A stretch of DNA of 64,000 bases from a bacterium (lineage in GTDB: Bacteria; Patescibacteriota; CPR2; UBA1875; JAJYID01). The stretch is taken from positions 492,321 to 556,320 of the forward strand of contig JAJYLR010000001.1 of the NCBI GenBank assembly GCA_021787535.1, written 5' to 3'. The notes beneath the pieces are model-generated. The model was not told the DNA's origin, ran no database searches, and saw only the letters and a program-made list of their open reading frames with translations. Each line of letters begins with the position of its first letter. Position 1 is the stretch's first letter. This document shows, piece by piece, positions 18,390 through 62,418 of the stretch. The position numbers and the translations under genes were made by a program.

Positions 18390-18413
18390 ACGCCCGGGTC
18401 AATGCCCGGGCGT
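18390..18413 (+). terminator. rho-independent terminator
   Basis: ACGCCCGGG-TCAAT-GCCCGGGCGT perfect hairpin then T-rich tract. Confidence 0.7.
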
Positions 18414-18447: not shown

Positions 18448-18477
18448 TTGACATTTGAACTTGAGTTGTGCTATAAT
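18448..18477 (+). promoter_or_regulatory. consensus sigma70 promoter TTGACA-N17-(C)TATAAT
   Basis: read directly. Confidence 0.55.
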
Positions 18478-18536: not shown

Positions 18537-19607
18537 ATGGCAAAAATGCAAACAACATTGAAAAACAAAGATCTGGCAGGAGGAAAACAAGGAGATTTTA
18601 GCCAGATGGCTGCTTTAGTGTTGTCAAGAAATATCCTAAAAAAGGAACGGGATATCAATGTCCTTACAGAAAGATATGGCATAAAGGGCGAGAAACCCAA
18701 AACACTCGAGGCAATAGGAAAAAAACTGGGAGTCACTAGGGAAAGGGTGAGACAGATTGAAAAAGCAGCACTCACAAAAATCGAAAAACAAGCGTCGAAA
18801 ATAGAAAAAATTCAGAGCTTTCACCAAAAACTCGATAAAAAGATCGAGGATTTTGGCGGCCTTGTAAATGAAGAGAGGTTAATCTCCGCTTTTATTGAAA
18901 CAAAGAAACAAAATCCAGCGGAAGTTAATGCCTTTTTATTGCTTGTTCAGTTAGACACTAAGCTGATGCGCCACGGCGAGAGTAAAGAAACAAGAAACTA
19001 CTGGATTTTGAAAAAAGCTGATCAGAAAAAATTCCTCGAGCTTTCAAAAGAAATTAATAATCTCTTGGAGAGAAAGAAAAAAGTTATTAGCGCCGAAGAT
19101 ATAGCGAAAGAATTATCCGCTTCTCGGGTAACGATCGAGTCACTTTTGTGGATTAAGAAAAATACGCTTCAAACCGAGGAGAAAAAATGGGGGCTCATTA
19201 CTTGGCGCGAAGTAAACCCGAAAAGTATCAAAGACAAAACATATATCATTATGAAGAAGCATAAAAAACCGCTTCATTACAGTGAAATAACAAAGAAAAT
19301 CCTAGCACACAGACTTCAAAAAAGACCGGTTACTAAGCAAGCGGTACATAATGAACTGATAAGAGACGATAGATTTGTCCTGATAGGCCGAGGTATTTAT
19401 GCACTCAGTGAATGGGGCTATAAACCCGGGGTTGTCGAAGAGGTAATCGTTGAAATCCTGCGTGAAGCCGGCCACCCGATGCACAAAAATGAAATTATTG
19501 AACACGTTAAAAAACACAGAATTGTCAAAGAAACAACTGTTATCTTAAATCTGCAGAGGAATACTTTTAAAAGGGTAGCCAGAGCAACTTATACATTAGC
19601 AGACTAA
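18537..19607 (+). CDS. DNA-binding protein: N-terminal sigma-70 region-4-like HTH, C-terminal HARE-HTH (RNAP delta-like) domain
   Basis: ERYGIKGEKPKTLEAIGKKLGVTRERVRQIEKAALTKI = sigma r4 signature; C-terminus HYSEITKKIL...DDRFVLIGRGIYALSEWGY = HARE-HTH pattern. Confidence 0.5.
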   Translation: MAKMQTTLKNKDLAGGKQGDFSQMAALVLSRNILKKERDINVLTERYGIKGEKPKTLEAIGKKLGVTRERVRQIEKAALTKIEKQASKIEKIQSFHQKLDKKIEDFGGLVNEERLISAFIETKKQNPAEVNAFLLLVQLDTKLMRHGESKETRNYWILKKADQKKFLELSKEINNLLERKKKVISAEDIAKELSASRVTIESLLWIKKNTLQTEEKKWGLITWREVNPKSIKDKTYIIMKKHKKPLHYSEITKKILAHRLQKRPVTKQAVHNELIRDDRFVLIGRGIYALSEWGYKPGVVEEVIVEILREAGHPMHKNEIIEHVKKHRIVKETTVILNLQRNTFKRVARATYTLAD

Positions 19608-19692: not shown

Positions 19693-22600
19693 ATGTTTGA
19701 AATCTTAATTTATATTTTAAAGGGAATTTTTCAGCTTTTAATGTGGACGTGGTGGATTATAGTGCCCATCATTGCCATCATCGCTTTTCAAAATCATAGA
19801 AAAACCAAATGGGTGGAGAAGCTTGAAAGTATTGTACTCTCAGTCAGAATACCTAAAAATAGCGAAAAAGGACCTACATCAGCTGAAATGATGTTTGCCA
19901 GCCTTCATGGTATTTTAAAACCGATTCAAGATCTCAAAAAAGAAGGCGCCATACAAGAACATATAAGCTTTGAAATGGTTGCGGACGCTAAGTCTATTAC
20001 ATTCTATGTATGGACTCCTAAACACTTGCAAAATTTTGTTGAGGGACAAATTTATGCGCAATACCCTACAGCTGAAATATCAGCAGTCGATGATTACTCA
20101 AAAAATATCGATGTGGACCATGACGGAATAGACGACTGCGTCGCAGGATGTGAACTGAAACTTGTGAGACCGGACTATTTTCCAATTAAAACTTTTGTGA
20201 ACTTTGAAGTAGATCCTCTGGCTGGGATAACCGGCGCATTATCTAAAATAGAGAATGCAGATGAAAAAATGTGGATTCAAATTCTTACAAGGCCTGTCTC
20301 AGATAGTTGGAGAGATAAAGGACTTGCATACGCTGAAAATTTAAAAAATGGAACCGGACCAAGCCTCTTCACAAAGGCAGGAATCACACATGGCCTGATA
20401 ACGCTTCCAATTACAATCCTGCATGGAATCTTCAATGTTATAATGCCAGCTGAAGATTCAAAAGGCGGAGGAGGAGACCAAAAACTGCCGCACAATGTGG
20501 AAACATCGCTCGCATGCCTGGAGGAAAAAGCGAACAAGCTTGGGTATCAGGTTAAAATCAGATTAGTGTATGTAGCAAAGTCTAGAGAATTGGCTCGCCA
20601 ACACTTAAGGATTACAGCCGGTGCCTTCAAGCAGTTTAATACGACAATAGGTAATGGGTTTGCGCCAACAAAGATTAAAACCGGAAGAGATGTTTTGGAG
20701 GAGTACCGTGCCCGGCTTTTTACAGATAAAGGATTTGTTTTAAATATTGAAGAAGTGGCCTCGCTTTACCATCTTCCTCATGCATCCGTAGAAACCCCAA
20801 ACATAGTCTGGACTTCATCTAAAAAGGGTGAACCGCCTGCGAATCTTCCTTATGAAGGAATGGTTGCGCCAGAAGACCTCACAGTTTTTGCTGAAACAAC
20901 TTTCAGGGGACAACCTAAAAGATTTGGAATAAAAAAAGACGATAGAAGAAGACATATGTATATTATCGGTAAAAGTGGTACCGGCAAATCAAAACTTTTA
21001 GAGATTCTGGCGGTAGATGATATCGAAAGAGGGCAGGGTGTCGGAATAGTCGATCCTCATGGAGAACTTGTCCATGATGTTTTAAAAAGAATACCTGCAC
21101 ACAGGGTTAATGATGTAGTTTATGTCAATCCAGCAGACAAAGATTTCCCGGTCGGTTTTAACCCATTGGAAACCACGCCAGAGTTTAGAGAAGAAACAAC
21201 ATCGGGTTTTGTCGTCGCTCTGGAACGGCTCTTCGGCTATAGCTGGGGTCCGCGTCTTGAGTATGTCCTGAGATATACTGTCTTAGCCCTTACTTATACC
21301 GAAGATGCTACCATGCTTTCAATCATCAGAATGCTGACTGACAAAGATTATAGAAAAAAGGTTCTGGAACGGGTAGAAGACCCTGTTGTAAAAACTTTCT
21401 GGCTTAAAGAATGGACTACATATAATGACCGATTTCAGGCAGAAGCAGTGGCTCCAATTTTAAATAAGGTCGGACAGTTCACTGCTTCGCCGATTATTCG
21501 AAATATTGTCGGACAAGCTAAGGGTACCATAGACTTCGCCGAAGCAATCAATAACCAAAAAATCTTGTTAGTCGACCTTTCGACTGGAAAAATAGGGGAG
21601 GATAACGCCGAACTTTTAGGTTCATTTATCATTACAAAACTTCAACTTGCCGCTATGGCCAGGTCAAAGATAAGACCGGAAGACAGAAAAGATTTTTATC
21701 TGTATGTTGATGAGTTTCAAAACTTTGCTACTAAATCTTTCGCCACAATCCTGTCTGAAGCCAGAAAATACAAGCTCAATCTAACATTGGCAAACCAGTA
21801 CATCGCTCAAATGGAAGAGACAGTCCGAGATGCTGTTTTTGGCAATGTCGGCTCGCTGATATCATTTAGGGTCGGGGCAACGGATGCTTCTTATTTAGAA
21901 AGAGAATTCAGTCCTGTCTTTGAGAAAAACGATCTCATTAATCTCGATAATCAGCATTTGTACCTTAATATGCTCATCGACGGTGTCACAACCATACCTT
22001 TCAGCGCTAAAACTATCAATGTGGCCGCTCCGGATCCGGCAAAAGATAATACTGAAAAAATTGTCCAAGCTTCAAGAGAGAGGTATAGTATCTCGAGACA
22101 GGAGATAGAAGATAAGATCACCAAATGGACCAATATTGATAAAATTGATATCGGCGCCAGAATGGATAAACAGGAAAAATCAAGATTTGAAAAAACTAAT
22201 GAAGAAATTGAACAAGAAGCGCGGATAAAAAAGAGCAGTCAATTTAAAAGAACCGATCCACAGAAAAGTACTAAACAAAATCCTGAAACGATCCAGGTTA
22301 AAAAGAGTGTTGATCCGGAAGAACTAAAGAAAATTATTCAGAAAGTAACCCGTCCCACCACTCAAAGCCAGAGCTTGGCAAAAGGAAGCAGCGACGAAAA
22401 TAAGCAAGAATCCCAAGACAATGTAAATCAAGTGAGGGGAGTTCAAAATGTCCAAAATGCACCTATACTTAAGAAAATTCAAGAGATCACTAATAAAGAA
22501 TCTGCACAGCCGTCAAACAAGATTCCAAACAAAGTAGAAGAAACAATTCGAGAAAAGCTTGCAAAACAAGCTTTAAGCGACAGCCCCAAAAACCGGGAAT

Positions 22601-23169
22601 CTATCGATCAAAAGACCGGCAAAGGCAGTCAAAACCAAGCATCTCAAGAGCAGCAGCCGAAAAAAACTCAGCCAGCGAGTATCGAAATTTCAAAAACATT
22701 CACGCCTGCAGCAAAATGGCAGGATAATAATATAAAAAGCAATATCGCAGCTCCAGCTCAAAAGCAGGACACGAAAAAGAACAAAGAACCGGAGGTCAAG
22801 ACGCAGCAAGACAATGAGATAAAAAAAGGCGGGCCTTCCGGCAATCAAGCTGAGCAAGAAAAGCCGCTTCAGAACAAGGTTAAGCCCTCAATTAAAATTA
22901 CAAGATTTACCGGCGCTGCTTCAGCGGAGAAGGCAGAATTTCCAAAGCAAGAACAAAAAACCCAGGAAGCGCCGCAAAAAAAGCTAAGCGACACCGATAA
23001 AGAACCCAATCAAGGCCAAGATAAAAGAGTAATTAATCCTGTAGGCATACCGGCTATCATGATGAAGAGGTTTATCCCGGATGATGAAAATATTAGAAAG
23101 TTGACTAGGGAAGAGTTCCTGAAACTTCAAGAGATACAGCCCAACGAGAAGATTATCATTATTGACTAG
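19693..23169 (+). CDS. membrane-anchored P-loop ATPase, TraD/VirD4 type IV coupling protein-like (also DUF87/HerA-like), with ~350-aa disordered K/Q/E-rich C-terminal tail
   Basis: N-terminal TM helices; Walker A IIGKSGTGKS, DPHGEL, Walker B FYLYVDEFQNF, ARKYKLNLTLANQYIAQ; residues ~800-1158 low complexity. Confidence 0.55.
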   Translation: MFEILIYILKGIFQLLMWTWWIIVPIIAIIAFQNHRKTKWVEKLESIVLSVRIPKNSEKGPTSAEMMFASLHGILKPIQDLKKEGAIQEHISFEMVADAKSITFYVWTPKHLQNFVEGQIYAQYPTAEISAVDDYSKNIDVDHDGIDDCVAGCELKLVRPDYFPIKTFVNFEVDPLAGITGALSKIENADEKMWIQILTRPVSDSWRDKGLAYAENLKNGTGPSLFTKAGITHGLITLPITILHGIFNVIMPAEDSKGGGGDQKLPHNVETSLACLEEKANKLGYQVKIRLVYVAKSRELARQHLRITAGAFKQFNTTIGNGFAPTKIKTGRDVLEEYRARLFTDKGFVLNIEEVASLYHLPHASVETPNIVWTSSKKGEPPANLPYEGMVAPEDLTVFAETTFRGQPKRFGIKKDDRRRHMYIIGKSGTGKSKLLEILAVDDIERGQGVGIVDPHGELVHDVLKRIPAHRVNDVVYVNPADKDFPVGFNPLETTPEFREETTSGFVVALERLFGYSWGPRLEYVLRYTVLALTYTEDATMLSIIRMLTDKDYRKKVLERVEDPVVKTFWLKEWTTYNDRFQAEAVAPILNKVGQFTASPIIRNIVGQAKGTIDFAEAINNQKILLVDLSTGKIGEDNAELLGSFIITKLQLAAMARSKIRPEDRKDFYLYVDEFQNFATKSFATILSEARKYKLNLTLANQYIAQMEETVRDAVFGNVGSLISFRVGATDASYLEREFSPVFEKNDLINLDNQHLYLNMLIDGVTTIPFSAKTINVAAPDPAKDNTEKIVQASRERYSISRQEIEDKITKWTNIDKIDIGARMDKQEKSRFEKTNEEIEQEARIKKSSQFKRTDPQKSTKQNPETIQVKKSVDPEELKKIIQKVTRPTTQSQSLAKGSSDENKQESQDNVNQVRGVQNVQNAPILKKIQEITNKESAQPSNKIPNKVEETIREKLAKQALSDSPKNRESIDQKTGKGSQNQASQEQQPKKTQPASIEISKTFTPAAKWQDNNIKSNIAAPAQKQDTKKNKEPEVKTQQDNEIKKGGPSGNQAEQEKPLQNKVKPSIKITRFTGAASAEKAEFPKQEQKTQEAPQKKLSDTDKEPNQGQDKRVINPVGIPAIMMKRFIPDDENIRKLTREEFLKLQEIQPNEKIIIID

Positions 23170-36180: not shown

Positions 36181-36837
36181 TTGGGGTATAATGGAGATAT
36201 GAATTGGATTCAGAAGGAAATTTTTAGAAAACTAGTTCTAAGTGATGAGCTTCGTTATACAGAACTAAAACCCGAAAGTGTCGAAGGCAATCTCTTCACT
36301 TATCATTTAAATCAATTAGTCTATGACGGCTATGTCACGAAAATAGATAAAAAATATACTTTATCGGAAACTGGGAAGTCTTACGTCAGTTCCATGAGTT
36401 TGGCAACCGGAGCTAAAAGAAAACAGCCTAAAATAGTTGTCATGATTGCCGGAAAAAATGAAAATGGCGAGTTTTTGCTTTTCAAATGGAAAAGGCAACC
36501 GTATAGAGAGCTAGTCAGTTTTCCATTTGGGAAAGTCCAGTATGGCAAACCAGTTCTCGATCTAACCAAAAAAGAACTCGACTGGAAAACAGGACTTAAA
36601 GGCGATTTAAGATACCAGGGAGATATTTATGTACAAACAACAAATGAACATTATCTCGCCCATATTTTTAAATTAAGCGCATTGAGCGGAAAAATTGGAT
36701 CAAATGGCATCCTAGGAAAACCTTTTTGGGGCAAAGTTGAAGAATTAAACGAAAATGAACTGATTCCCGGTTTCAAAGCAATCGTGGAGATCCTGGAAAC
36801 CAAAAAACCTCCATATTTGGAAGAAGTTATAACCTAG
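36181..36837 (+). CDS. putative regulator with N-terminal winged-helix domain and C-terminal Nudix-like fold
   Basis: IQKEIFRKLVLSDELRYTEL...YHLNQLVYDGYV wHTH pattern; C-terminal half degenerate Nudix-like. Confidence 0.35.
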   Translation: MGYNGDMNWIQKEIFRKLVLSDELRYTELKPESVEGNLFTYHLNQLVYDGYVTKIDKKYTLSETGKSYVSSMSLATGAKRKQPKIVVMIAGKNENGEFLLFKWKRQPYRELVSFPFGKVQYGKPVLDLTKKELDWKTGLKGDLRYQGDIYVQTTNEHYLAHIFKLSALSGKIGSNGILGKPFWGKVEELNENELIPGFKAIVEILETKKPPYLEEVIT

Positions 36838-36857
36838 ATTCTATAAATAATTAACTC

Positions 36858-37382
36858 TTATGTTTTTATTCCCTCTAAAGGTAACTGAAGTAAAGCTTTT
36901 CTTAAATTTAAAAACGGCAAGATTTCCTTTTTCCCCTCATAAATCTCAGCTTTTATTACACAACCATTCTGATCATAAATATTAGAAATTACCTTCTCTT
37001 TATCAAAGATCATTGTGTCGCCTGCTGGCAGTTGAATATCTCCGATTTTTTTGCAATCAATAAGATATATATTTTCACCAACCAAAGGGATATTTATATT
37101 TTTATAACACTCTATCTCCCACTTGATATAATCGCTTAGAGGATAATCTACCACATGAATCCTGATTTTCTTTACGTTCTCCTTACCCTCGGCCCATGGT
37201 TTGGCATTTTCTTTCATTATTCTGAGCGATTTTTCCCGATCACCAGCCAGCCAGCTGTCAAGCGACGGCCCGTTATCTTCGCCGTAAAACTGCAGAACTT
37301 CAACTTTAAAAAACTCTTCCTGCATTTCATTCCAAAAAGAGTTAAAAGTCTGGTCAAGATCTTTTTCATCGATGATTTTCAT
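36858..37382 (-). CDS. hypothetical protein (174 aa)
   Basis: ORF only, convergent with preceding gene. Confidence 0.35.
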   Translation of the reverse strand: MKIIDEKDLDQTFNSFWNEMQEEFFKVEVLQFYGEDNGPSLDSWLAGDREKSLRIMKENAKPWAEGKENVKKIRIHVVDYPLSDYIKWEIECYKNINIPLVGENIYLIDCKKIGDIQLPAGDTMIFDKEKVISNIYDQNGCVIKAEIYEGKKEILPFLNLRKALLQLPLEGIKT

Positions 37383-58092: not shown

Positions 58093-58728
58093 TCAATTAC
58101 AACTTCTTATTAAAAGTAATGACTTTTTAGGCCCTGGTACGGCACCTCGAATAGCTAGAATGTTGTTTTCTTTATCTACTTTGCCAACTTTCAGGTTTTT
58201 CACTGTAACGCGAGAATGCCCCATCTGGCCCGGCATCTTCATTCCTTTGAAAACATGTTGGGGATACATAGCGCCGATCGAACCCGGTTTTCGCTGATTT
58301 CTGGAACCATGTGTCATGGGTCCGCGATGGAAACCATGTCTTTTGATGGTTCCGGCGAAACCCTTGCCCTTGCTTAATCCTGAAACGTTTATCTTCTCTC
58401 CTTCATCAAAAATATTGCAGGTTATTTCATCTCCGACTTTTATGTTTTCTGTGTTTATTTTAACTTCCTGCAAATATTTTGATTGTGATTTTGATGTTTT
58501 AAGATGCCCTTTTAAGGGTTTGGAAATCTTTTTAGCCAATCCAAAACCAATCTGTACGGCCTCATATCCATCTTTGTCCATAGACTTAATCTGGGTCACT
58601 GTGCAAGGTCCTGCTTCAACCAAAGTAATAGGAACTATTTCACCGCTTTCTGCGAAATAGTTTGTCATACCTATTTTCCTAGCCAATATCGCCTTCATTT
58701 TTCCAGACAAAAAAAACGTTTTCGACAC
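58093..58728 (-). CDS. rplC: 50S ribosomal protein L3
   Basis: ILARKIGMTNYF...KGKGFAGTIKRHGFHRGPMTHGS. Confidence 0.93.
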   Translation of the reverse strand: MSKTFFLSGKMKAILARKIGMTNYFAESGEIVPITLVEAGPCTVTQIKSMDKDGYEAVQIGFGLAKKISKPLKGHLKTSKSQSKYLQEVKINTENIKVGDEITCNIFDEGEKINVSGLSKGKGFAGTIKRHGFHRGPMTHGSRNQRKPGSIGAMYPQHVFKGMKMPGQMGHSRVTVKNLKVGKVDKENNILAIRGAVPGPKKSLLLIRSCN

Positions 58729-58843: not shown

Positions 58844-59386
58844 CTACTGTCTACGTTTTTTTTTAAAAATATTCAAAGGAATCAAAAGTATTTTCTTTGC
58901 TTCGGCCTTTACTGGAACATTCCAACCTATTTTTTCTTTAGCTTGAATCATCGAAAGCAGTTGAAAAGGATGAAGTTTAGTGAAATTGCCTTCAAAAGCG
59001 TGTTTTATCTTTTTTCTATCGTCTTTTGGCAACAATTTTTTGAGTTCATCTTTGATAGTCGAAGGAGTAAAAATATAAATATCAGTTATACCTTTTCGTT
59101 TAATAATATCATCCAGGATTTTATCCATTTCCTTCAAAAAACGGTGCCTGATTTCAACTTTGTTTGTCTCAAGAACAGACCCGGATTCTAAAACCCTGCC
59201 ATGCCCGGCAGTTTCAAAAAATCCTTCTTTATCTGAATAGTGTGGATATAGAAGCTTGAACTCTCCTATTTTTTCTATTCTGCCATTTTTAGCAATATAG
59301 AAATCAGCTTCGTGAAGGCCGGTAACGACAATTAAAGCTTTTTGATTTTGGAACTGTGGCAAATCTCTGGTTATCTTCATAATCAA
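58844..59386 (-). CDS. hypothetical protein (180 aa); speculative eRF1/Pelota-like fold
   Basis: ORF only; part of non-ribosomal block inserted between rplC and rpsJ. Confidence 0.4.
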   Translation of the reverse strand: MIMKITRDLPQFQNQKALIVVTGLHEADFYIAKNGRIEKIGEFKLLYPHYSDKEGFFETAGHGRVLESGSVLETNKVEIRHRFLKEMDKILDDIIKRKGITDIYIFTPSTIKDELKKLLPKDDRKKIKHAFEGNFTKLHPFQLLSMIQAKEKIGWNVPVKAEAKKILLIPLNIFKKKRRQ

Positions 59387-59434
59387 AAATATAACAAATA
59401 TTATACAAATTTTATTTGTTTAATTTTATAAATT

Positions 59435-59471
59435 AGACCCCCAGAGTGTGAACACCCTGAGGGTCTTTTTT
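59435..59471. terminator. hairpin + T-run (bidirectional terminator-like)
   Basis: AGACCCCCAGAGTGTG-AAC-ACCCTGAGGGTCT imperfect stem then TTTTTT. Confidence 0.5.
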
Positions 59472-59476
59472 AGAAA

Positions 59477-60184
59477 CTACTTGCGATGCCCAATAAATGA
59501 AAGGTTGGGTATCGACTCCTCGGCTTCCTCCACACCATCTATAACCAGATTCTCCTGTGTCCCTACTACAGCACCGCATTTTATGCAGAAACTGGTATAG
59601 ATGTGTTTATACCCTGAGGTTGCAGGAGGGGTAACCAAAGGACCTGCTTGCCCAACTGCCTCAAGCTGGCCTCCCACAAGACGCATTTTCCCGCGGCGTC
59701 TAGGCTGACAACTCTCAACCGTATAGATGGAACCGGTTTTCTCAACTTTCGAACGGCATGGTTTTCCGTCAATGTGTCCTCCACAGAGTGGTTTCATATT
59801 CTCGGGTTTGCCTTGCTGATAGCAAGCACCCCAGAGGTATGAAGGCCGAAATGCCTCGGCATAGGTCAGTATGTCTTGAGGCGGCCTACCCGCAATGCAT
59901 ACAACATTCTCAACTCCTCTACCATTGCCGAATGTGTGATCAGCCGGAAGACTAATCGAGATCTCAGGCAAATCAAACTCGATGTACATCCCTTGCGCTT
60001 TCACAAGTAGAGACTGCCTGAAAGTCTGTAATTGTACTGTCCCCCCCTTCCCGCTAGATAAACCAAAGAGTTTAAAAGATCTGAGATGCCGGCAAGCATG
60101 ACATGACCCAAGCAATGGATAAGGATTCCCTTCTCTGTCAGCGGATTTGTAATAACTTTCTGCTGTGACACTAGTATCGTCCAT
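59477..60184 (-). CDS. hypothetical Cys-containing protein (235 aa), moderately GC-elevated (~48%)
   Basis: only long ORF in any frame here; Cys pairs (CHAC, CIKCG); no family recognised. Confidence 0.35.
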   Translation of the reverse strand: MDDTSVTAESYYKSADREGNPYPLLGSCHACRHLRSFKLFGLSSGKGGTVQLQTFRQSLLVKAQGMYIEFDLPEISISLPADHTFGNGRGVENVVCIAGRPPQDILTYAEAFRPSYLWGACYQQGKPENMKPLCGGHIDGKPCRSKVEKTGSIYTVESCQPRRRGKMRLVGGQLEAVGQAGPLVTPPATSGYKHIYTSFCIKCGAVVGTQENLVIDGVEEAEESIPNLSFIGHRK

Positions 60185-60193
60185 GATATCTCC

Positions 60194-60556
60194 TTAATCT
60201 TCGGCTGTCAGTAAAAAATCGAGGTCAAGTGATACAGTTGCCAGCAAGGCGTCTTGATAATTTTTGACTCCCGAAAGACAAATAAAACCCGGATGGCTAA
60301 AATCAGGATCCTCGTCGTGATTGTTAAAATATATCACGCTTCCGGTCGACGTTTGGCAAAGGTAAACATCATGACGGTCTTTTAGCTTAAAAACTCTTCT
60401 TTCTCCCAAAAAAGTACAAAATCGACATCCGCTATCCGGACCTCCGCATTTGATTTTCTCTACAGGGAAAAAATCTTTTTTCAAAAGTCCCATCGTATCC
60501 CCTCTCTCAATCTTGAGTAGTTCATTTGAAAAGTTGCACATAAAAAAGGAGGCCAC
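60194..60556 (-). CDS. hypothetical Cys-containing protein (120 aa)
   Basis: GTG start with GGGAGG SD; CGGPDSGCRFC motif; no family recognised. Confidence 0.3.
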   Translation of the reverse strand: MASFFMCNFSNELLKIERGDTMGLLKKDFFPVEKIKCGGPDSGCRFCTFLGERRVFKLKDRHDVYLCQTSTGSVIYFNNHDEDPDFSHPGFICLSGVKNYQDALLATVSLDLDFLLTAED

Positions 60557-60684
60557 CCCTCCCTTTTATGAATTTATTTAAATCAAATTTACCACAAACT
60601 TTTTCAAGGTGTCAAATCTGTCCCATTGAAATATGGAATTTCGCTCAATTCGTCAGTTAAACTTGTCAAAACAAGATAAAATTT

Positions 60685-61164
60685 CTACTCTAAAATCGGG
60701 TGTTTTTTGACAAAGTTATGATTTTTCCACCACTTTTCGAGACCTAAATATTGTCCGGCGCCGACTGAAGCCAGGGTCAGTAAAACAAGGATGTAAATGA
60801 TGTGTTCGTCAATGAATGGATTAGTTTTGATTGGCATCACGCTAAGCCAGATTAGAAACATCAACACTGATCCCACGTAAGCAGACAGTTTCATATGAGT
60901 ACCAAGCAAAAACCCAATTCCCGCAAAAAGCAGTCCCAGTATGAAAAGCCAGTCAACCAAGGGATTGCCTGCCATACTATGAAATGTAGAAGCAAATGGT
61001 CCATGAACGCTCTTTAAATACCCGGCTGTAGGCGAAACCCCATCGATCCATGCCTTGCCGGCTTTGGTAGCATACCCCAAGCCAAATATTTTATCCAGCC
61101 CAGCCCAGAAAAGTATCCACCCTATTGCGATCCTTAAAAGTCCGAATAAATATTCTTTTTTCAT
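60685..61164 (-). CDS. DoxX-family integral membrane protein
   Basis: 4 TM helices, LLRIAIGWILFWAGLDKI DoxX signature. Confidence 0.7.
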   Translation of the reverse strand: MKKEYLFGLLRIAIGWILFWAGLDKIFGLGYATKAGKAWIDGVSPTAGYLKSVHGPFASTFHSMAGNPLVDWLFILGLLFAGIGFLLGTHMKLSAYVGSVLMFLIWLSVMPIKTNPFIDEHIIYILVLLTLASVGAGQYLGLEKWWKNHNFVKKHPILE

Positions 61165-61263
61165 TTTTTACTCCTTTAACCCTTATTTGTAAGGATTTTA
61201 ATAAATCTAAGCTTATAATAGCTTAACATAAACATATTACAATACTTTTTTTGGATTTGAAAA

Positions 61264-61289
61264 GGGCCGGCGCGCATGCGCGCCGGCCC
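61264..61289 (-). terminator. GC-rich rho-independent terminator (26-bp perfect palindrome)
   Basis: GGGCCGGCGCGCATGCGCGCCGGCCC followed on minus strand by TTTTCAAATCCAAAAAAAG. Confidence 0.65.
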
Positions 61290-61326
61290 TTAGGCGAGAA
61301 TATGTTACTTTCTCACCTTGTTACTT

Positions 61327-61932
61327 TCAGCGAGTGTTGAAATGCTCCGCCAGTTTCGCGGTATCGATTTCAACAGATTCCACAGAGATTTTCACCCCAA
61401 GAAGCCCCGGAATCTCCATTGCCTTGCATACCCCATCGGCCTCTTCGACAACCGGTTTCACGATGAAGACGTAGCCGTGAGAGTGAGAAATCTCCACGGA
61501 AGTTCCCGCTTTGATCACCTCGCCAGTCGAGGAGATCAAATAAATCGGAGTCGCCCCGACCATGACCCGGGCCATCATTGCACCGCCTCTGCCCTCATGG
61601 CAGATATCCTGGTCCATGATGGCCGTCTTCACACTCTTCCTCGGCTTTCTCTGCCAAGGCTTTGTGGACTGCACTCCGAGAAGCATACACAGATCTTCGG
61701 CAGAATTGACCACCGTTGAACCGCCCTTCTTCTGGCCGGCCTTCGGCTTGAACAGCTCCAGTCCGACTCCATTTCTGCCGTTCAGTCTTGCAACCACCCT
61801 GGTGTTTAACTGGATTGGAGCACCAGTGTGGTTATTGATGAACATTTTCCCGGTCTTGCTGTTGCCGATCGTGAGACCGTCCGTGGGTACTACAAACCCA
61901 CGGATCTTGACATGCTTCGGGTTGTTGCTCAT
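61327..61932 (-). CDS. hypothetical protein (201 aa) in a 52-55% GC compositional island
   Basis: long ORF, strong GC3 bias unlike neighbours; no family recognised. Confidence 0.4.
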   Translation of the reverse strand: MSNNPKHVKIRGFVVPTDGLTIGNSKTGKMFINNHTGAPIQLNTRVVARLNGRNGVGLELFKPKAGQKKGGSTVVNSAEDLCMLLGVQSTKPWQRKPRKSVKTAIMDQDICHEGRGGAMMARVMVGATPIYLISSTGEVIKAGTSVEISHSHGYVFIVKPVVEEADGVCKAMEIPGLLGVKISVESVEIDTAKLAEHFNTR

Positions 61933-62094: not shown

Positions 62095-62418
62095 TTACAT
62101 TTTAATTTCGATATTCACACATGATGGCAGAGAAAGTTCCATAAGAGTATCGATCGTCTTTGCTGTCGGTTCTGTGATGTCGATTAATCTCTTGTGAGTT
62201 CGCATTTCAAACTGCTCCCGAGAGTTTTTATCAATATTTGAAGCACGGTTCACCGTCATTGATTTTCTCTCGGTCGGAAGCGGGATAGGTCCATGAACTT
62301 GTGCTCCGCTTCTTTCCGCCGTCTCGATGATCTGTTTGGCTGACTGATCTATCAGCTTATGATCATAAGACTTTAGTTTGATGCGTATTCTTTGCTTTTC
62401 TTTTGTCTCTGTTGCCAT
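62095..62418 (-). CDS. rpsJ: 30S ribosomal protein S10
   Basis: [41 protein letters not shown]. Confidence 0.94.

What the first reader, a model, noticed from the sequence alone, without database searches (positions are those of the whole stretch)
19693..23169. 1158-aa membrane-anchored VirD4/TraD-like ATPase with a ~350-residue disordered tail, without other T4SS genes nearby
Seen: Walker A IIGKSGTGKS, DPHGEL, Walker B LYVDEFQNF and RKYKLNLTLANQ match coupling-protein/HerA-like ATPases. The N-terminus has TM helices plus a ~350-aa domain of unknown type. The last third is K/Q/E-rich low complexity. No VirB4/VirB6 or relaxase is in the window.
Basis: partly seen in the sequence, partly recalled or inferred. 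Interest (0 to 1): 0.55.

Follow-up and report, generated by a model that had tools for sequence, protein, structure and literature searches.

The report
Orphan type IV coupling ATPase, Patescibacteria
This gene encodes a membrane-anchored motor protein of the kind that feeds DNA or proteins into bacterial type IV secretion machines; the family is present in almost all ultra-small Patescibacteria (CPR) bacteria, has already been catalogued but never characterised, and here sits among housekeeping genes and carries a long floppy tail.

Summary
The ORF (19693-23169, +, 1158 aa) and all quoted motifs are real. There is one N-terminal TM helix, not several. The ATPase half (aa 396-812) is a TrwB/VirD4-type coupling-protein (T4CP) domain: hhalign to R388 TrwB gives 97%, against 21% for FtsK and 4% for VirB4. 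The "unknown" 350-aa N-domain is Pfam DUF8128, and its predicted fold matches only the N-terminal domain of VirB4. The last 30% is a non-conserved, disordered K/Q/E-rich tail that ends in a 28-aa beta-alpha-beta motif conserved in close relatives.

The family occurs in every CPR class sampled. It is split into two adjacent in-frame genes at the domain boundary in 20 Parcubacteria loci. It usually follows a sigma70-region4/HARE-HTH gene and lies next to the dcw cluster.

The same TM-DUF8128-ATPase architecture is found on actinobacterial, Bacillus-group and haloarchaeal plasmids, beside VirB4, VirB3, VirB6-like and Replic_Relax genes. This makes it the coupling protein of monoderm conjugative T4SSs, orphaned on the CPR chromosome.

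Published work already reports these CPR T4CP homologues (5,713 in 2,918 genomes). The Southlakia orthologue is non-essential by Tn-seq.

The parts
18448..18477 (+). Perfect sigma-70-type promoter match (TTGACA-18-TATAAT with TG), the likely promoter of a two-gene operon (sigma-r4/HARE-HTH gene plus target)
   Evidence: 12 of 12 hexamer matches, preceded by a terminator-like hairpin at 18390-18413. No promoter or terminator match lies in the 85-nt gap before 19693. This is a consensus match only.
18537..19607 (+). Upstream partner gene: 356-aa DNA-binding protein with Sigma70 region 4 (aa 37-82) and HARE-HTH (aa 230-293)
   Evidence: Pfam. It lies directly upstream of the target in 44 of 75 CPR loci with enough flank. 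The Southlakia orthologue SEML1_0294 ('RpoS') is essential by Tn-seq (PMC10633639 Table S1).
19693..23169 (+). Whole ORF: 1158-aa membrane-anchored DUF8128-T4CP ATPase with disordered tail
19705..19791 (+). Single N-terminal TM helix (aa ~5-33) followed by basic residues (R36, K37, K39), giving N-out/C-in topology
   Evidence: Kyte-Doolittle analysis. AF2 predicts one long helix at aa 2-43.
19822..20877 (+). DUF8128 N-domain (aa 44-395), cytoplasmic alpha+beta domain with a VirB4-N-terminal-domain-like fold
   Evidence: PF26449 is precomputed on all 120 listed homologues. AF2 N-domain model has pLDDT 81 and pTM 0.77. In Foldseek against PDB the top 12 hits are all TrwK/VirB4 (E 9e-7 to 2.5e-5), and the next hit is noise. 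The domain is a separate gene in 20 Parcubacteria loci.
20878..22128 (+). T4CP-type ATPase domain (aa 396-812)
20962..20991 (+). Walker A, IIGKSGTGKS (aa 424-433)
   Evidence: Read from the sequence. G426, G429, G431 and K432 are invariant.
21178..21510 (+). All-alpha insertion (aa ~496-606) between Walker A and Walker B, corresponding to the T4CP all-alpha domain
   Evidence: AF2 helices 496-606. The Pfam TrwB_AAD_bind match spans aa 413-710. hhalign to TrwB is collinear through this region.
21700..21726 (+). Walker B, LYVDEFQNF (aa 670-678)
   Evidence: D673, E674, F675 and Q676 are invariant.
21763..21798 (+). RKYKLNLTLANQ (aa 691-702), which aligns with TrwB RKAGLRVVAGLQ
22129..23082 (+). 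Disordered K/Q/E-rich tail (aa 813-1130), net charge about +14, not conserved
   Evidence: pLDDT is below 50 over 886-1131. Column conservation is 0.03-0.29. Tail length in homologues ranges from 61 to 443 aa.
23083..23166 (+). C-terminal 28-aa beta-alpha-beta motif (…IRKLTREEFLKLQEIQPNEKIIIID), conserved in the WS5/CPR2/Howlettbacteria-like clade
   Evidence: pLDDT is 81-88, with strands at 1134-1138 and 1153-1157 and a helix at 1139-1144. Conservation is shown. No Pfam match.

Best explanation
What it is. This is the long-tailed paralogue of a Patescibacteria-wide, chromosomally encoded type IV coupling protein (T4CP). It descends from the coupling protein of monoderm or archaeal conjugative T4SSs, which share the same TM-DUF8128-ATPase architecture.

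Proposed mechanism (inferred, not shown). Six subunits are anchored by their single N-terminal helices. The VirB4-N-domain-like DUF8128 domains form a membrane-proximal collar, and the TrwB-like ATPase ring with its all-alpha domains faces the cytoplasm. ATP hydrolysis is used to receive a substrate and push or pull it at the membrane. The motor most likely works with the phylum's VirB4-based T4SS, which is encoded elsewhere and lacks a coupling protein in its own cluster. The 320-aa disordered, mildly basic tail with its terminal docking motif acts as a flexible arm that recruits a partner or substrate, as the C-terminal extensions of F TraD and Legionella DotL do (established knowledge).

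How essential it is. Because the Southlakia orthologue is dispensable in co-culture, it probably serves an accessory substrate class rather than the essential T4SS function.
For: Family identity:
- Pfam TrwB_AAD_bind and TraG-D_C score above their cut-offs, and 36 of 36 diverse members match TrwB_AAD_bind.
- hhalign to TrwB gives 97%.
- Profile searches of PDB sequences find only TrwB and DotL.
- Foldseek aligns the ATPase half to TrwB at TM 0.64.
- The catalytic residues are invariant.

Homologues in T4SS clusters. tblastn finds full-length (two-domain) homologues on 69 plasmid records.
- Embleya plasmid: VirB6-like, PrgI/VirB3, VirB4, homologue, Replic_Relax, NlpC/P60.
- Peribacillus plasmid: homologue, Replic_Relax, TcpC, TcpE.
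- Haladaptatus plasmid: VirB4-like, N-domain gene, ATPase gene.
- N-domain homology is confirmed at E 4e-18 to 8e-22.

Published context:
- The CPR T4SS is nested in the monoderm MPF-FATA clade. VirD4-type T4CP homologues occur in 2,918 of 3,035 CPR genomes, and only 148 lie near virB4 (PMC12102498).
- The Southlakia T4SS cluster lacks a recognisable coupling protein (PMC10633639).

Other support:
- The DUF8128 fold matches only the VirB4 N-domain.
- Fission into a TM-DUF8128 gene and an ATPase gene in 20 loci shows two interacting modules.
Against: - No T4SS gene lies in the window or within ±10 kb of any of the 83 CPR loci examined.
- The Southlakia orthologue SEML1_0293 is called non-essential, whereas the T4SS is essential. 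Its reads do fall about 4-fold from T0 to T2.
- CPR genomes almost entirely lack relaxases, so the classical DNA substrate is missing.
- The conserved neighbours are housekeeping genes (topA, a sigma-like HTH gene, dcw, secDF), which would also fit an exapted role.
- There is a single TM helix rather than the canonical two-helix T4CP anchor.
- Hexamer formation, the role of the tail and any contact with the T4SS are inferred, not shown.
- The VirB4-N-domain similarity rests on one solved protein at TM ~0.4, with no sequence signal.
Confidence: 0.5

Rival explanations
1. Exapted, T4SS-independent nucleic-acid translocase. The motor works on its own or with ComEC/ComFC/DprA, for example as the cytoplasmic pulling motor for DNA uptake. 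CPR have ComEC, ComFC and DprA, but no ComFA is reported. The basic tail and lineage-specific zinc fingers would bind nucleic acid.
For: - It is non-essential in Southlakia, like comEC, comF and dprA.
- It lies in a conserved block with dprA and topA.
- No ComFA or ComEA turned up in the Southlakia tables.
- 71% of tails are net positive, Saccharibacteria tails carry poly-R/K runs, and Parcubacteria tails carry a treble-clef zinc finger, PF23477.
- PMC12102498 itself says exaptation cannot be ruled out.
Against: - dprA-topA linkage is, from general knowledge, common in bacteria, and this was not tested here. It is therefore not specific evidence.
- The nearest non-CPR relatives are T4SS coupling proteins.
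- No coupling protein is known to power ComEC-type uptake.
- There is no direct evidence of nucleic-acid binding.
Confidence: 0.27
2. Division-linked chromosome translocase: an FtsK analogue acting at the septum.
For: - The gene is convergent with ftsQ at the end of the dcw cluster in the query clade and in Saccharibacteria. In some Parcubacteria it sits directly upstream of ftsI or near mraY and ftsW.
- It belongs to the same ATPase superfamily as FtsK.
Against: - Southlakia has a canonical, essential FtsK (SEML1_0096, with 4TM, alpha, motor and gamma domains), while the orthologue of this gene is non-essential.
- hhalign to the FtsK motor gives only 21% over 58 columns.
- There is no gamma domain.
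Confidence: 0.04
3. HerA-like repair or defence ATPase.
For: - Pfam DUF87 matches 35 of 36 family members.
- Foldseek hits HerA 4d2i at E 3e-12.
Against: - For the query, DUF87 scores 23.0 bits, below the 23.2 cut-off.
- The structural match is weaker than to TrwB (TMt 0.52 against 0.64).
- The N-domain is a 350-aa alpha+beta domain, not a HAS barrel.
- No NurA or Sir2 partner gene was seen in the neighbouring genes examined in any locus.
- The protein is membrane-anchored.
Confidence: 0.04
4. Remnant of an integrated conjugative element or other mobile element in this genome.
For: - ATPase-only relatives occur on IMG/VR contigs next to an integrase, and full-length relatives occur on plasmids and Bacillus phages.
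Against: - The same syntenic position is kept in CPR2, Saccharibacteria and related lineages.
- Identity is 35-52% across CPR classes, with dozens of invariant residues.
- GC content is the same as the flanks.
- No integrase, relaxase or repeats lie nearby.
- The family is classed as core and Patescibacteria-enriched.
Confidence: 0.02

Closest known systems
TrwB (R388), VirD4 and TraD type IV coupling proteins
   Same: FtsK/HerA-superfamily P-loop domain with an inserted all-alpha domain. hhalign gives 97% and Foldseek TM 0.64. Both have an N-terminal membrane anchor. Both have a C-terminal extension, which in TraD and DotL recruits partners.
   Different: One TM helix instead of two. A 350-aa DUF8128 domain sits between the anchor and the ATPase. 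The disordered tail is much longer. No T4SS or relaxase genes are nearby. NCBIfam TraD models score far below their cut-offs (34.5 bits against 366).
Coupling proteins of monoderm/archaeal conjugative T4SS clusters (e.g. Embleya plasmid NZ_CP108778 WP_331738717, Peribacillus plasmid WP_051387410, and the Haladaptatus split pair)
   Same: Same TM-DUF8128-ATPase architecture, with Walker A at about residue 421-426. Identity is 24-31% over both domains. The split into an N-domain gene and an ATPase gene recurs in haloarchaea, as in Parcubacteria.
   Different: Those genes lie next to VirB4, VirB3, VirB6-like and Replic_Relax genes on plasmids. The CPR gene is chromosomal, among core genes, duplicated in some genomes, and carries a long tail.
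Patescibacteria T4CP homologues of Quinonero-Coronel et al. 2025 (PMC12102498); Southlakia SEML1_0293 and SEML1_0142
   Same: This is the same family. SEML1_0293 has the same domain positions and the same upstream sigma-like gene and topA.
   Different: This member has one of the longer tails, and the beta-alpha-beta end motif is specific to its clade. The paper did not describe the N-domain, the gene fission, the synteny or the tail.
VirB4 (TrwK of R388)
   Same: Two-domain layout with Walker A about 430-450 residues in. The DUF8128 model matches only the VirB4 N-domain in the PDB. The fused TM helix is reminiscent of VirB3-VirB4 fusions.
   Different: There is no sequence similarity beyond Walker A (hhalign 4%) and no PF03135 match. 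The ATPase domain is TrwB-like, not VirB4-like.

Membership tests
Type IV coupling protein (VirD4/TrwB/TraD) | FtsK/HerA-superfamily P-loop NTPase with intact Walker A and B | tested here: met
   GKSGTGKS and DEFQ are present and invariant in 120 homologues.
Type IV coupling protein (VirD4/TrwB/TraD) | Sequence-profile membership (PF10412, PF12696, PF02534; similarity to TrwB) | tested here: met
   PF10412 scores 28.2 bits against a cut-off of 20.5, and PF12696 scores 22.8 against 22. 36 of 36 members match PF10412, best E 1e-14. hhalign to TrwB gives 97.2%. The NCBIfam TraD equivalog and subfamily models are not reached.
Type IV coupling protein (VirD4/TrwB/TraD) | All-alpha domain inserted in the nucleotide-binding domain | tested here: met
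   AF2 helices at 496-606. The alignment to TrwB is collinear through this region. Foldseek to TrwB gives TMt 0.64.
Type IV coupling protein (VirD4/TrwB/TraD) | N-terminal membrane anchor (canonically two TM helices with a periplasmic loop) | tested here: inconclusive
   An anchor is present, but it is a single helix and is followed by a 350-aa extra domain.
Type IV coupling protein (VirD4/TrwB/TraD) | Encoded with, or functionally tied to, a T4SS (VirB4) and/or a relaxase | tested here: not met
   None in the window or in 83 CPR loci. The feature is met for non-CPR homologues. Whether a T4SS exists elsewhere in this genome could not be checked.
Type IV coupling protein (VirD4/TrwB/TraD) | Hexameric ATPase that recruits secretion substrates | not testable with these tools
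   Needs biochemistry or genetics.
VirB4 | VirB4-type N-terminal domain | tested here: inconclusive
VirB4 | VirB4-type ATPase domain by sequence | tested here: not met
   hhalign to TrwK gives 3.6-7.6%, Walker A only. TrwK phmmer finds no family member. No CagE_TrbE_VirB match was listed. hhalign to pSK41 TrsE gives 85%, but only over the stretch from Walker B to the C-terminus.
FtsK/SpoIIIE | FtsK motor (alpha-beta) domain, gamma domain, 4-TM anchor | tested here: not met
   hhalign gives 21% over 58 columns. The best Pfam FtsK_SpoIIIE E-value among 36 members is 0.0027. FtsK phmmer finds nothing. A genuine FtsK exists in Southlakia.
HerA | HAS-barrel N-domain, DUF87 core, NurA-type partner | tested here: not met
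   DUF87 scores 23.0 bits against a cut-off of 23.2. The N-domain is a 350-aa alpha+beta domain. No nuclease partner gene was found among the neighbours examined.
DUF8128 (PF26449) | Match to the Pfam model | tested here: met
   PF26449 is precomputed on the identical protein P0001 and on all 120 best homologues. The local Pfam copy lacks the model. A search with the domain alone finds 2,370 50%-identity clusters.

The most novel reading that the evidence does not exclude
The CPR T4CP paralogues are not export receptors. Instead they are inward-pulling motors that import host nucleic acid (DNA or RNA) through the pilus-bearing T4SS or through the ComEC route. The basic disordered tails and zinc fingers would capture the incoming polymer. 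This would connect an unexplained, phylum-wide core gene to the open question of how these nucleotide-auxotrophic epibionts feed. A 2026 preprint (10.64898/2026.06.21.733656) reports uptake of host RNA by a CPR bacterium by an unresolved route. The evidence here does not exclude this reading, but nothing here directly supports it.
Probability: 0.1. Interest if true: 0.85.

Novelty: new member of a known kind. Interest (0 to 1): 0.4.

Why it matters
Patescibacteria make up a large share of bacterial diversity, and their T4SS is essential for epibiotic growth, yet its substrate and energising components are unknown. This gene family is present in about 96% of their genomes and is classed as core and Patescibacteria-enriched, but no function has been assigned. 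Four findings make it a concrete, genetically testable candidate for the missing coupling component or for an exapted translocase:
- It shares its full architecture with coupling proteins that sit beside VirB4 on monoderm and archaeal plasmids.
- Its N-domain looks like the VirB4 N-domain.
- Its two halves can be separate genes.
- It has two paralogues with opposite essentiality in Southlakia, the second assigned only provisionally.
For the scan itself, the puzzle of a coupling protein without a T4SS is explained and is not an anomaly.

Tried and rejected
- FtsK replacement. Rejected because a real, essential FtsK exists in Southlakia and profile similarity is weak.
- Fusion of the sigma-like gene with the target in L007. 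This is an artefact of an N-run.
- Programmed read-through at the Parcubacteria split. All 20 gene pairs are in the same frame, but the stops are mostly TAA and five loci have additional in-frame stops. This is therefore a true fission of an ancestral single ORF.
- The C-terminal motif as an AbrB/SpoVT-like or other known domain. No Pfam match.
- Correlation between the C-terminal motif and an upstream sigma-like gene. None found: the long motif is clade-specific, and the short terminal PGExVxF strand occurs with and without that neighbour.
- The sigma-r4/HARE-HTH protein as a diverged Replic_Relax relaxase-like protein. hhalign gives 0.1%.
- Sequence-level homology of DUF8128 to the TrwK N-domain or to pSK41 TrsD. 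None found.
- A second copy in the window. None found.
- A recent nonsense truncation at the C-terminus. The closest relative, P0002, ends at the same residue.
Full report
**Observation**

The ORF at 19693..23169 (+) encodes 1158 aa. In an alignment with 119 homologues, the catalytic residues G426, G429, G431, K432, D673, E674, R691, K692 and Q702 are invariant.

Only one hydrophobic segment is a conserved membrane helix (aa ~5-33). It is followed by R36, K37 and K39, which implies N-out/C-in topology. A second hydrophobic stretch at 234-253 is conserved in neither sequence nor hydrophobicity.

The ATG at 19693 is supported by homologue N-termini, with W20 nearly invariant. The database gene call for the identical protein (P0001, 1135 aa) starts 23 residues later. 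The TAG stop is genuine, and the closest relative ends at the same residue.

**Anatomy**

AlphaFold2 on the 120-sequence alignment gives pLDDT mostly above 90 for residues 1-810 and below 50 for about 828-1131. The last 28 residues return to 81-88 and form strand-helix-strand. The parts are:
- one long N-terminal helix;
- an alpha+beta domain (44-395);
- a P-loop domain (396-812) with an all-helical insertion (496-606) between Walker A and Walker B;
- a tail that is 16% K, 13% Q and 10% E, lacks Y, H and C, and has net charge about +14.

In homologues, the tail after residue 806 ranges from 61 to 443 aa (median 215) and is not alignable beyond close relatives.
- Relatives of the query (WS5, CPR2 and Howlettbacteria-like) keep a terminal motif...ITxEEFxxLKEIxP(N/H)EKIxI..., often followed by ...KPGETVxF.
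- Saccharibacteria tails carry poly-R/K runs.
- Several Parcubacteria tails carry a treble-clef zinc finger, PF23477, with E down to 1e-14.

**What the ATPase is**
- Pfam: TrwB_AAD_bind (28.2 bits, cut-off 20.5) and TraG-D_C (22.8, cut-off 22) pass. DUF87 is just below its cut-off. NCBIfam TraD models are touched only at Walker A.
- Across 36 diverse members, 36 match TrwB_AAD_bind (best E 1e-14), 35 match DUF87, 35 match TraG-D_C and 18 match T4SS-DNA_transf. FtsK_SpoIIIE never scores better than E 0.0027.
- Profile searches of PDB sequences find only TrwB and DotL.
- hhalign of the family profile gives 97.2% to R388 TrwB (E 3e-11, 283 columns including the all-alpha region), 21% to the E. 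coli FtsK motor and 3.6% to R388 TrwK/VirB4.
- Foldseek aligns the ATPase half to TrwB with TMt 0.64 and rmsd 4.8.

**What the N-domain is**

All 120 listed homologues carry PF26449 (DUF8128) in the precomputed annotation. The local Pfam copy lacks this model. A search with the domain alone finds 2,370 50%-identity clusters, in both fused (800-1100 aa) and stand-alone (about 420-520 aa) forms.

With the full model, the best PDB matches are TrwK/VirB4 over about 900 columns (E 9e-15), ahead of TrwB. With a separate N-domain model (pLDDT 81, pTM 0.77), the top 12 PDB hits are all TrwK/VirB4 (E 9e-7 to 2.5e-5, TMq 0.39-0.41). The next hits are chlorite dismutases at TM 0.16. TrwB, HerA and FtsK are absent from that list, so the match is to the VirB4-specific N-terminal domain.

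**Distribution and context in CPR**

The best 80 cover Saccharibacteria, Nomura-, Peregrini-, Gracili-, Dojka-, Moran-, Magasanik-, Uhr-, Davies-, Shapiro-, Wildermuth-, Doudna-, Falkow- and Abawacabacteria, at 35-52% identity over residues 1 to about 815.

The window is chromosomal core. The larger ORFs scanned with Pfam give only housekeeping functions (listed here in no particular order): D-Ala-D-Ala carboxypeptidases, a two-component system, scpAB, der, pth, dprA, topA, an HD protein, a Sigma70_r4/HARE-HTH protein, the target, then convergently ftsQ-murG-ftsW-mraY, and further along ribosomal protein, nusG, secY, rpoA and tuf genes.

The order topA, sigma-like gene, target, then convergent dcw recurs in CPR2, in a 1.19-Mb contig of an unnamed relative and in Saccharibacteria. 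The sigma-like gene is directly upstream in 44 of 75 loci with enough flank, including Parcubacteria whose other neighbours differ. Elsewhere the upstream gene is secF, a LytR_C gene or ruvX.

In the window, a perfect -35/-10 match precedes the sigma-like gene, and nothing promoter- or terminator-like lies in the 85-nt gap, so an operon is likely. No VirB4-like or other FtsK/HerA-type ATPase lies within ±10 kb in any of the 83 loci.

**Gene fission and paralogy**

In 20 Parcubacteria-type loci the gene is two adjacent ORFs, broken at query residues ~388-395. One is a TM-DUF8128 protein (424-493 aa) and the other is the ATPase (500-987 aa). All 20 pairs are in the same reading frame, with gaps of 0-27 nt that are all multiples of three. 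The stops are TAA in 14 loci, TAG in 5 and TGA in 1, and five loci have extra in-frame stops. This points to fission of an ancestral single ORF rather than read-through, and it shows that the two halves are interacting modules.

Five loci also hold a second full-length paralogue (790-856 aa, about 36% identity, no tail). In one locus it immediately abuts the long form. There is no second copy in the window.

**Relatives outside CPR**

This was the most informative step. tblastn of residues 1-812 finds 727 plasmid records, 69 of which cover at least 80% of the query. They come from Streptomyces and Embleya, Bacillus-group genera, haloarchaea and others. It also finds 46 phage records, 15 of which cover at least 80%, including Bacillus phage G gp156 and Herelleviridae such as CP-51 gp91.
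- On an Embleya plasmid the homologue is 812 aa, with a TM helix at ~34-60 and Walker A at ~421. The gene order is TrbL_4 (VirB6-like), PrgI (VirB3), XF1762, VirB4 (P-loop_TraG/AAA_10/TraC_F_IV), homologue, Replic_Relax, NlpC/P60.
- On a Peribacillus plasmid the order is primase, homologue, Replic_Relax, TcpC, TcpE.
- On a Haladaptatus plasmid a VirB4-like gene is followed by a 350-aa N-domain gene and an 895-aa ATPase gene.

N-domain homology is confirmed by blastp (E 8e-22, 4e-18, 6e-13 and 5e-6) and by profile search. TM-DUF8128-ATPase is therefore the coupling protein of a class of monoderm and archaeal conjugative T4SSs. The CPR gene is its chromosomal, unlinked descendant.

**Literature**
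- Quinonero-Coronel et al. 2025 (PMC12102498) found 5,713 VirD4-type T4CP homologues in 2,918 of 3,035 CPR genomes, only 148 of them near virB4. VirB4 was found in 2,417 genomes, and there were almost no relaxases. The authors note that exaptation cannot be ruled out.
- Wang et al. 2023 (PMC10633639) state that the essential Southlakia T4SS cluster lacks a recognisable coupling protein.
- Their Table S1 lists SEML1_0293 (921 aa, PF10412 at 402-719), which lies downstream of 'RpoS' SEML1_0294 and topA SEML1_0296. It is classed as core, Patescibacteria-enriched and non-essential. Its normalised reads fall from 5817 to 2940 to 1372, while two neighbours (SEML1_0291 and SEML1_0292) stay flat.
- In the same table, the sigma-like SEML1_0294 is essential. 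A second T4CP-like protein, SEML1_0142 (1019 aa, P-loop at 381-800), is also essential. I assign it to the short paralogue only provisionally, because I could not obtain its sequence.
- A canonical FtsK, SEML1_0096, is essential. comEC and dprA are non-essential, and no ComFA or ComEA was found.

**Interpretation**

Identity as a T4CP-family motor is well supported. The mechanism is inferred: a membrane-anchored hexamer with a DUF8128 collar, a TrwB-like ring, and six long flexible tails that recruit a partner or substrate. The most economical function is as a coupling ATPase for the dispersed CPR T4SS. It would probably serve an accessory substrate, because the orthologue is dispensable while the T4SS and the other paralogue are not.

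The main rival is an exapted, T4SS-independent nucleic-acid translocase, for example for competence. That reading fits the non-essentiality, the dprA-topA block and the basic or zinc-finger tails. FtsK-like, HerA-like and mobile-element-remnant readings are poorly supported.

**Novelty and score**

The family and its orphan status are already published, so this is a new member of a known kind. The additions made here are:
- the VirB4-N-domain-like fold of DUF8128;
- the shared architecture with plasmid coupling proteins;
- the in-frame fission;
- the conserved sigma-like neighbour;
- the modular tail.

These are modest but useful leads. Interest is 0.4.

Noticed in passing
window 58844-61932: The S10 ribosomal operon is interrupted. 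Between rpsJ (62095-62418, -) and rplC (58093-58728, -), which are normally adjacent, lies a ~3.4-kb block of five ORFs without annotation (three were scanned against Pfam without a hit). They are 201 aa, a 159-aa multi-TM protein, two Cys-rich proteins of 120 and 235 aa, and 180 aa. GC content is raised (0.443 against about 0.40).
   Followed up: no
window 18537-19607 (and upstream of the target in L001-L083): A Sigma70-region-4 plus HARE-HTH protein of about 350 aa is conserved directly upstream of the ATPase gene in many CPR classes. Its Southlakia orthologue ('RpoS', SEML1_0294) is essential and Patescibacteria-enriched. It has no region 2 or 3, so it is not an ordinary sigma factor.
   Followed up: partly
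L048, L051, L053-L060, L063, L066, L069, L070, L073, L077-L079, L081, L082 (about 9.8-13 kb in most): In Parcubacteria-type genomes the gene is split at the domain boundary into two ORFs. They are always in the same reading frame (gaps of 0-27 nt, all multiples of 3), and some loci have two or three consecutive in-frame stops.
   Followed up: yes
L048:11417-12997, L051:3167-5263, L063:11306-12913, L077:11285-14248, L081:764-2626: The tails of Parcubacteria homologues contain a treble-clef zinc finger (PF23477 zf_Tbcl_2, CxxC...RPxxCxxC) embedded in disorder. L077 also has DDRP/RDDRPRE-type repeats.
   Followed up: partly
L015:4912-7458, L040:1128-3587, L052:5773-8145, L057:1518-4088, L083:2687-5248: A tail-less full-length paralogue (about 36% identity) lies near the long-tailed copy. 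In L015, L052 and L083 the order is paralogue, small 170-187-aa gene, sigma-like gene, long-tailed copy. In L040 the two paralogues abut.
   Followed up: partly
L084-L089 (IMG/VR contigs); phage records JN638751 (phage G gp156) and KF554508 (CP-51 gp91, L097:5782-8517): Relatives occur on viral contigs and in large Bacillus phages. ATPase-only versions sit next to an M23 peptidase and a PLD nuclease (L084) or next to an integrase and AlpA (L089). Full two-domain versions of unknown function occur in Herelleviridae and phage G.
   Followed up: partly
window 36181-37382: Two adjacent genes of unknown function sit between the nusG-rplK-rplA block and a GH1 glycosidase. One carries a DUF7347 HTH-like domain (218 aa, +) and the other DUF6879 (174 aa, -).
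   Followed up: no
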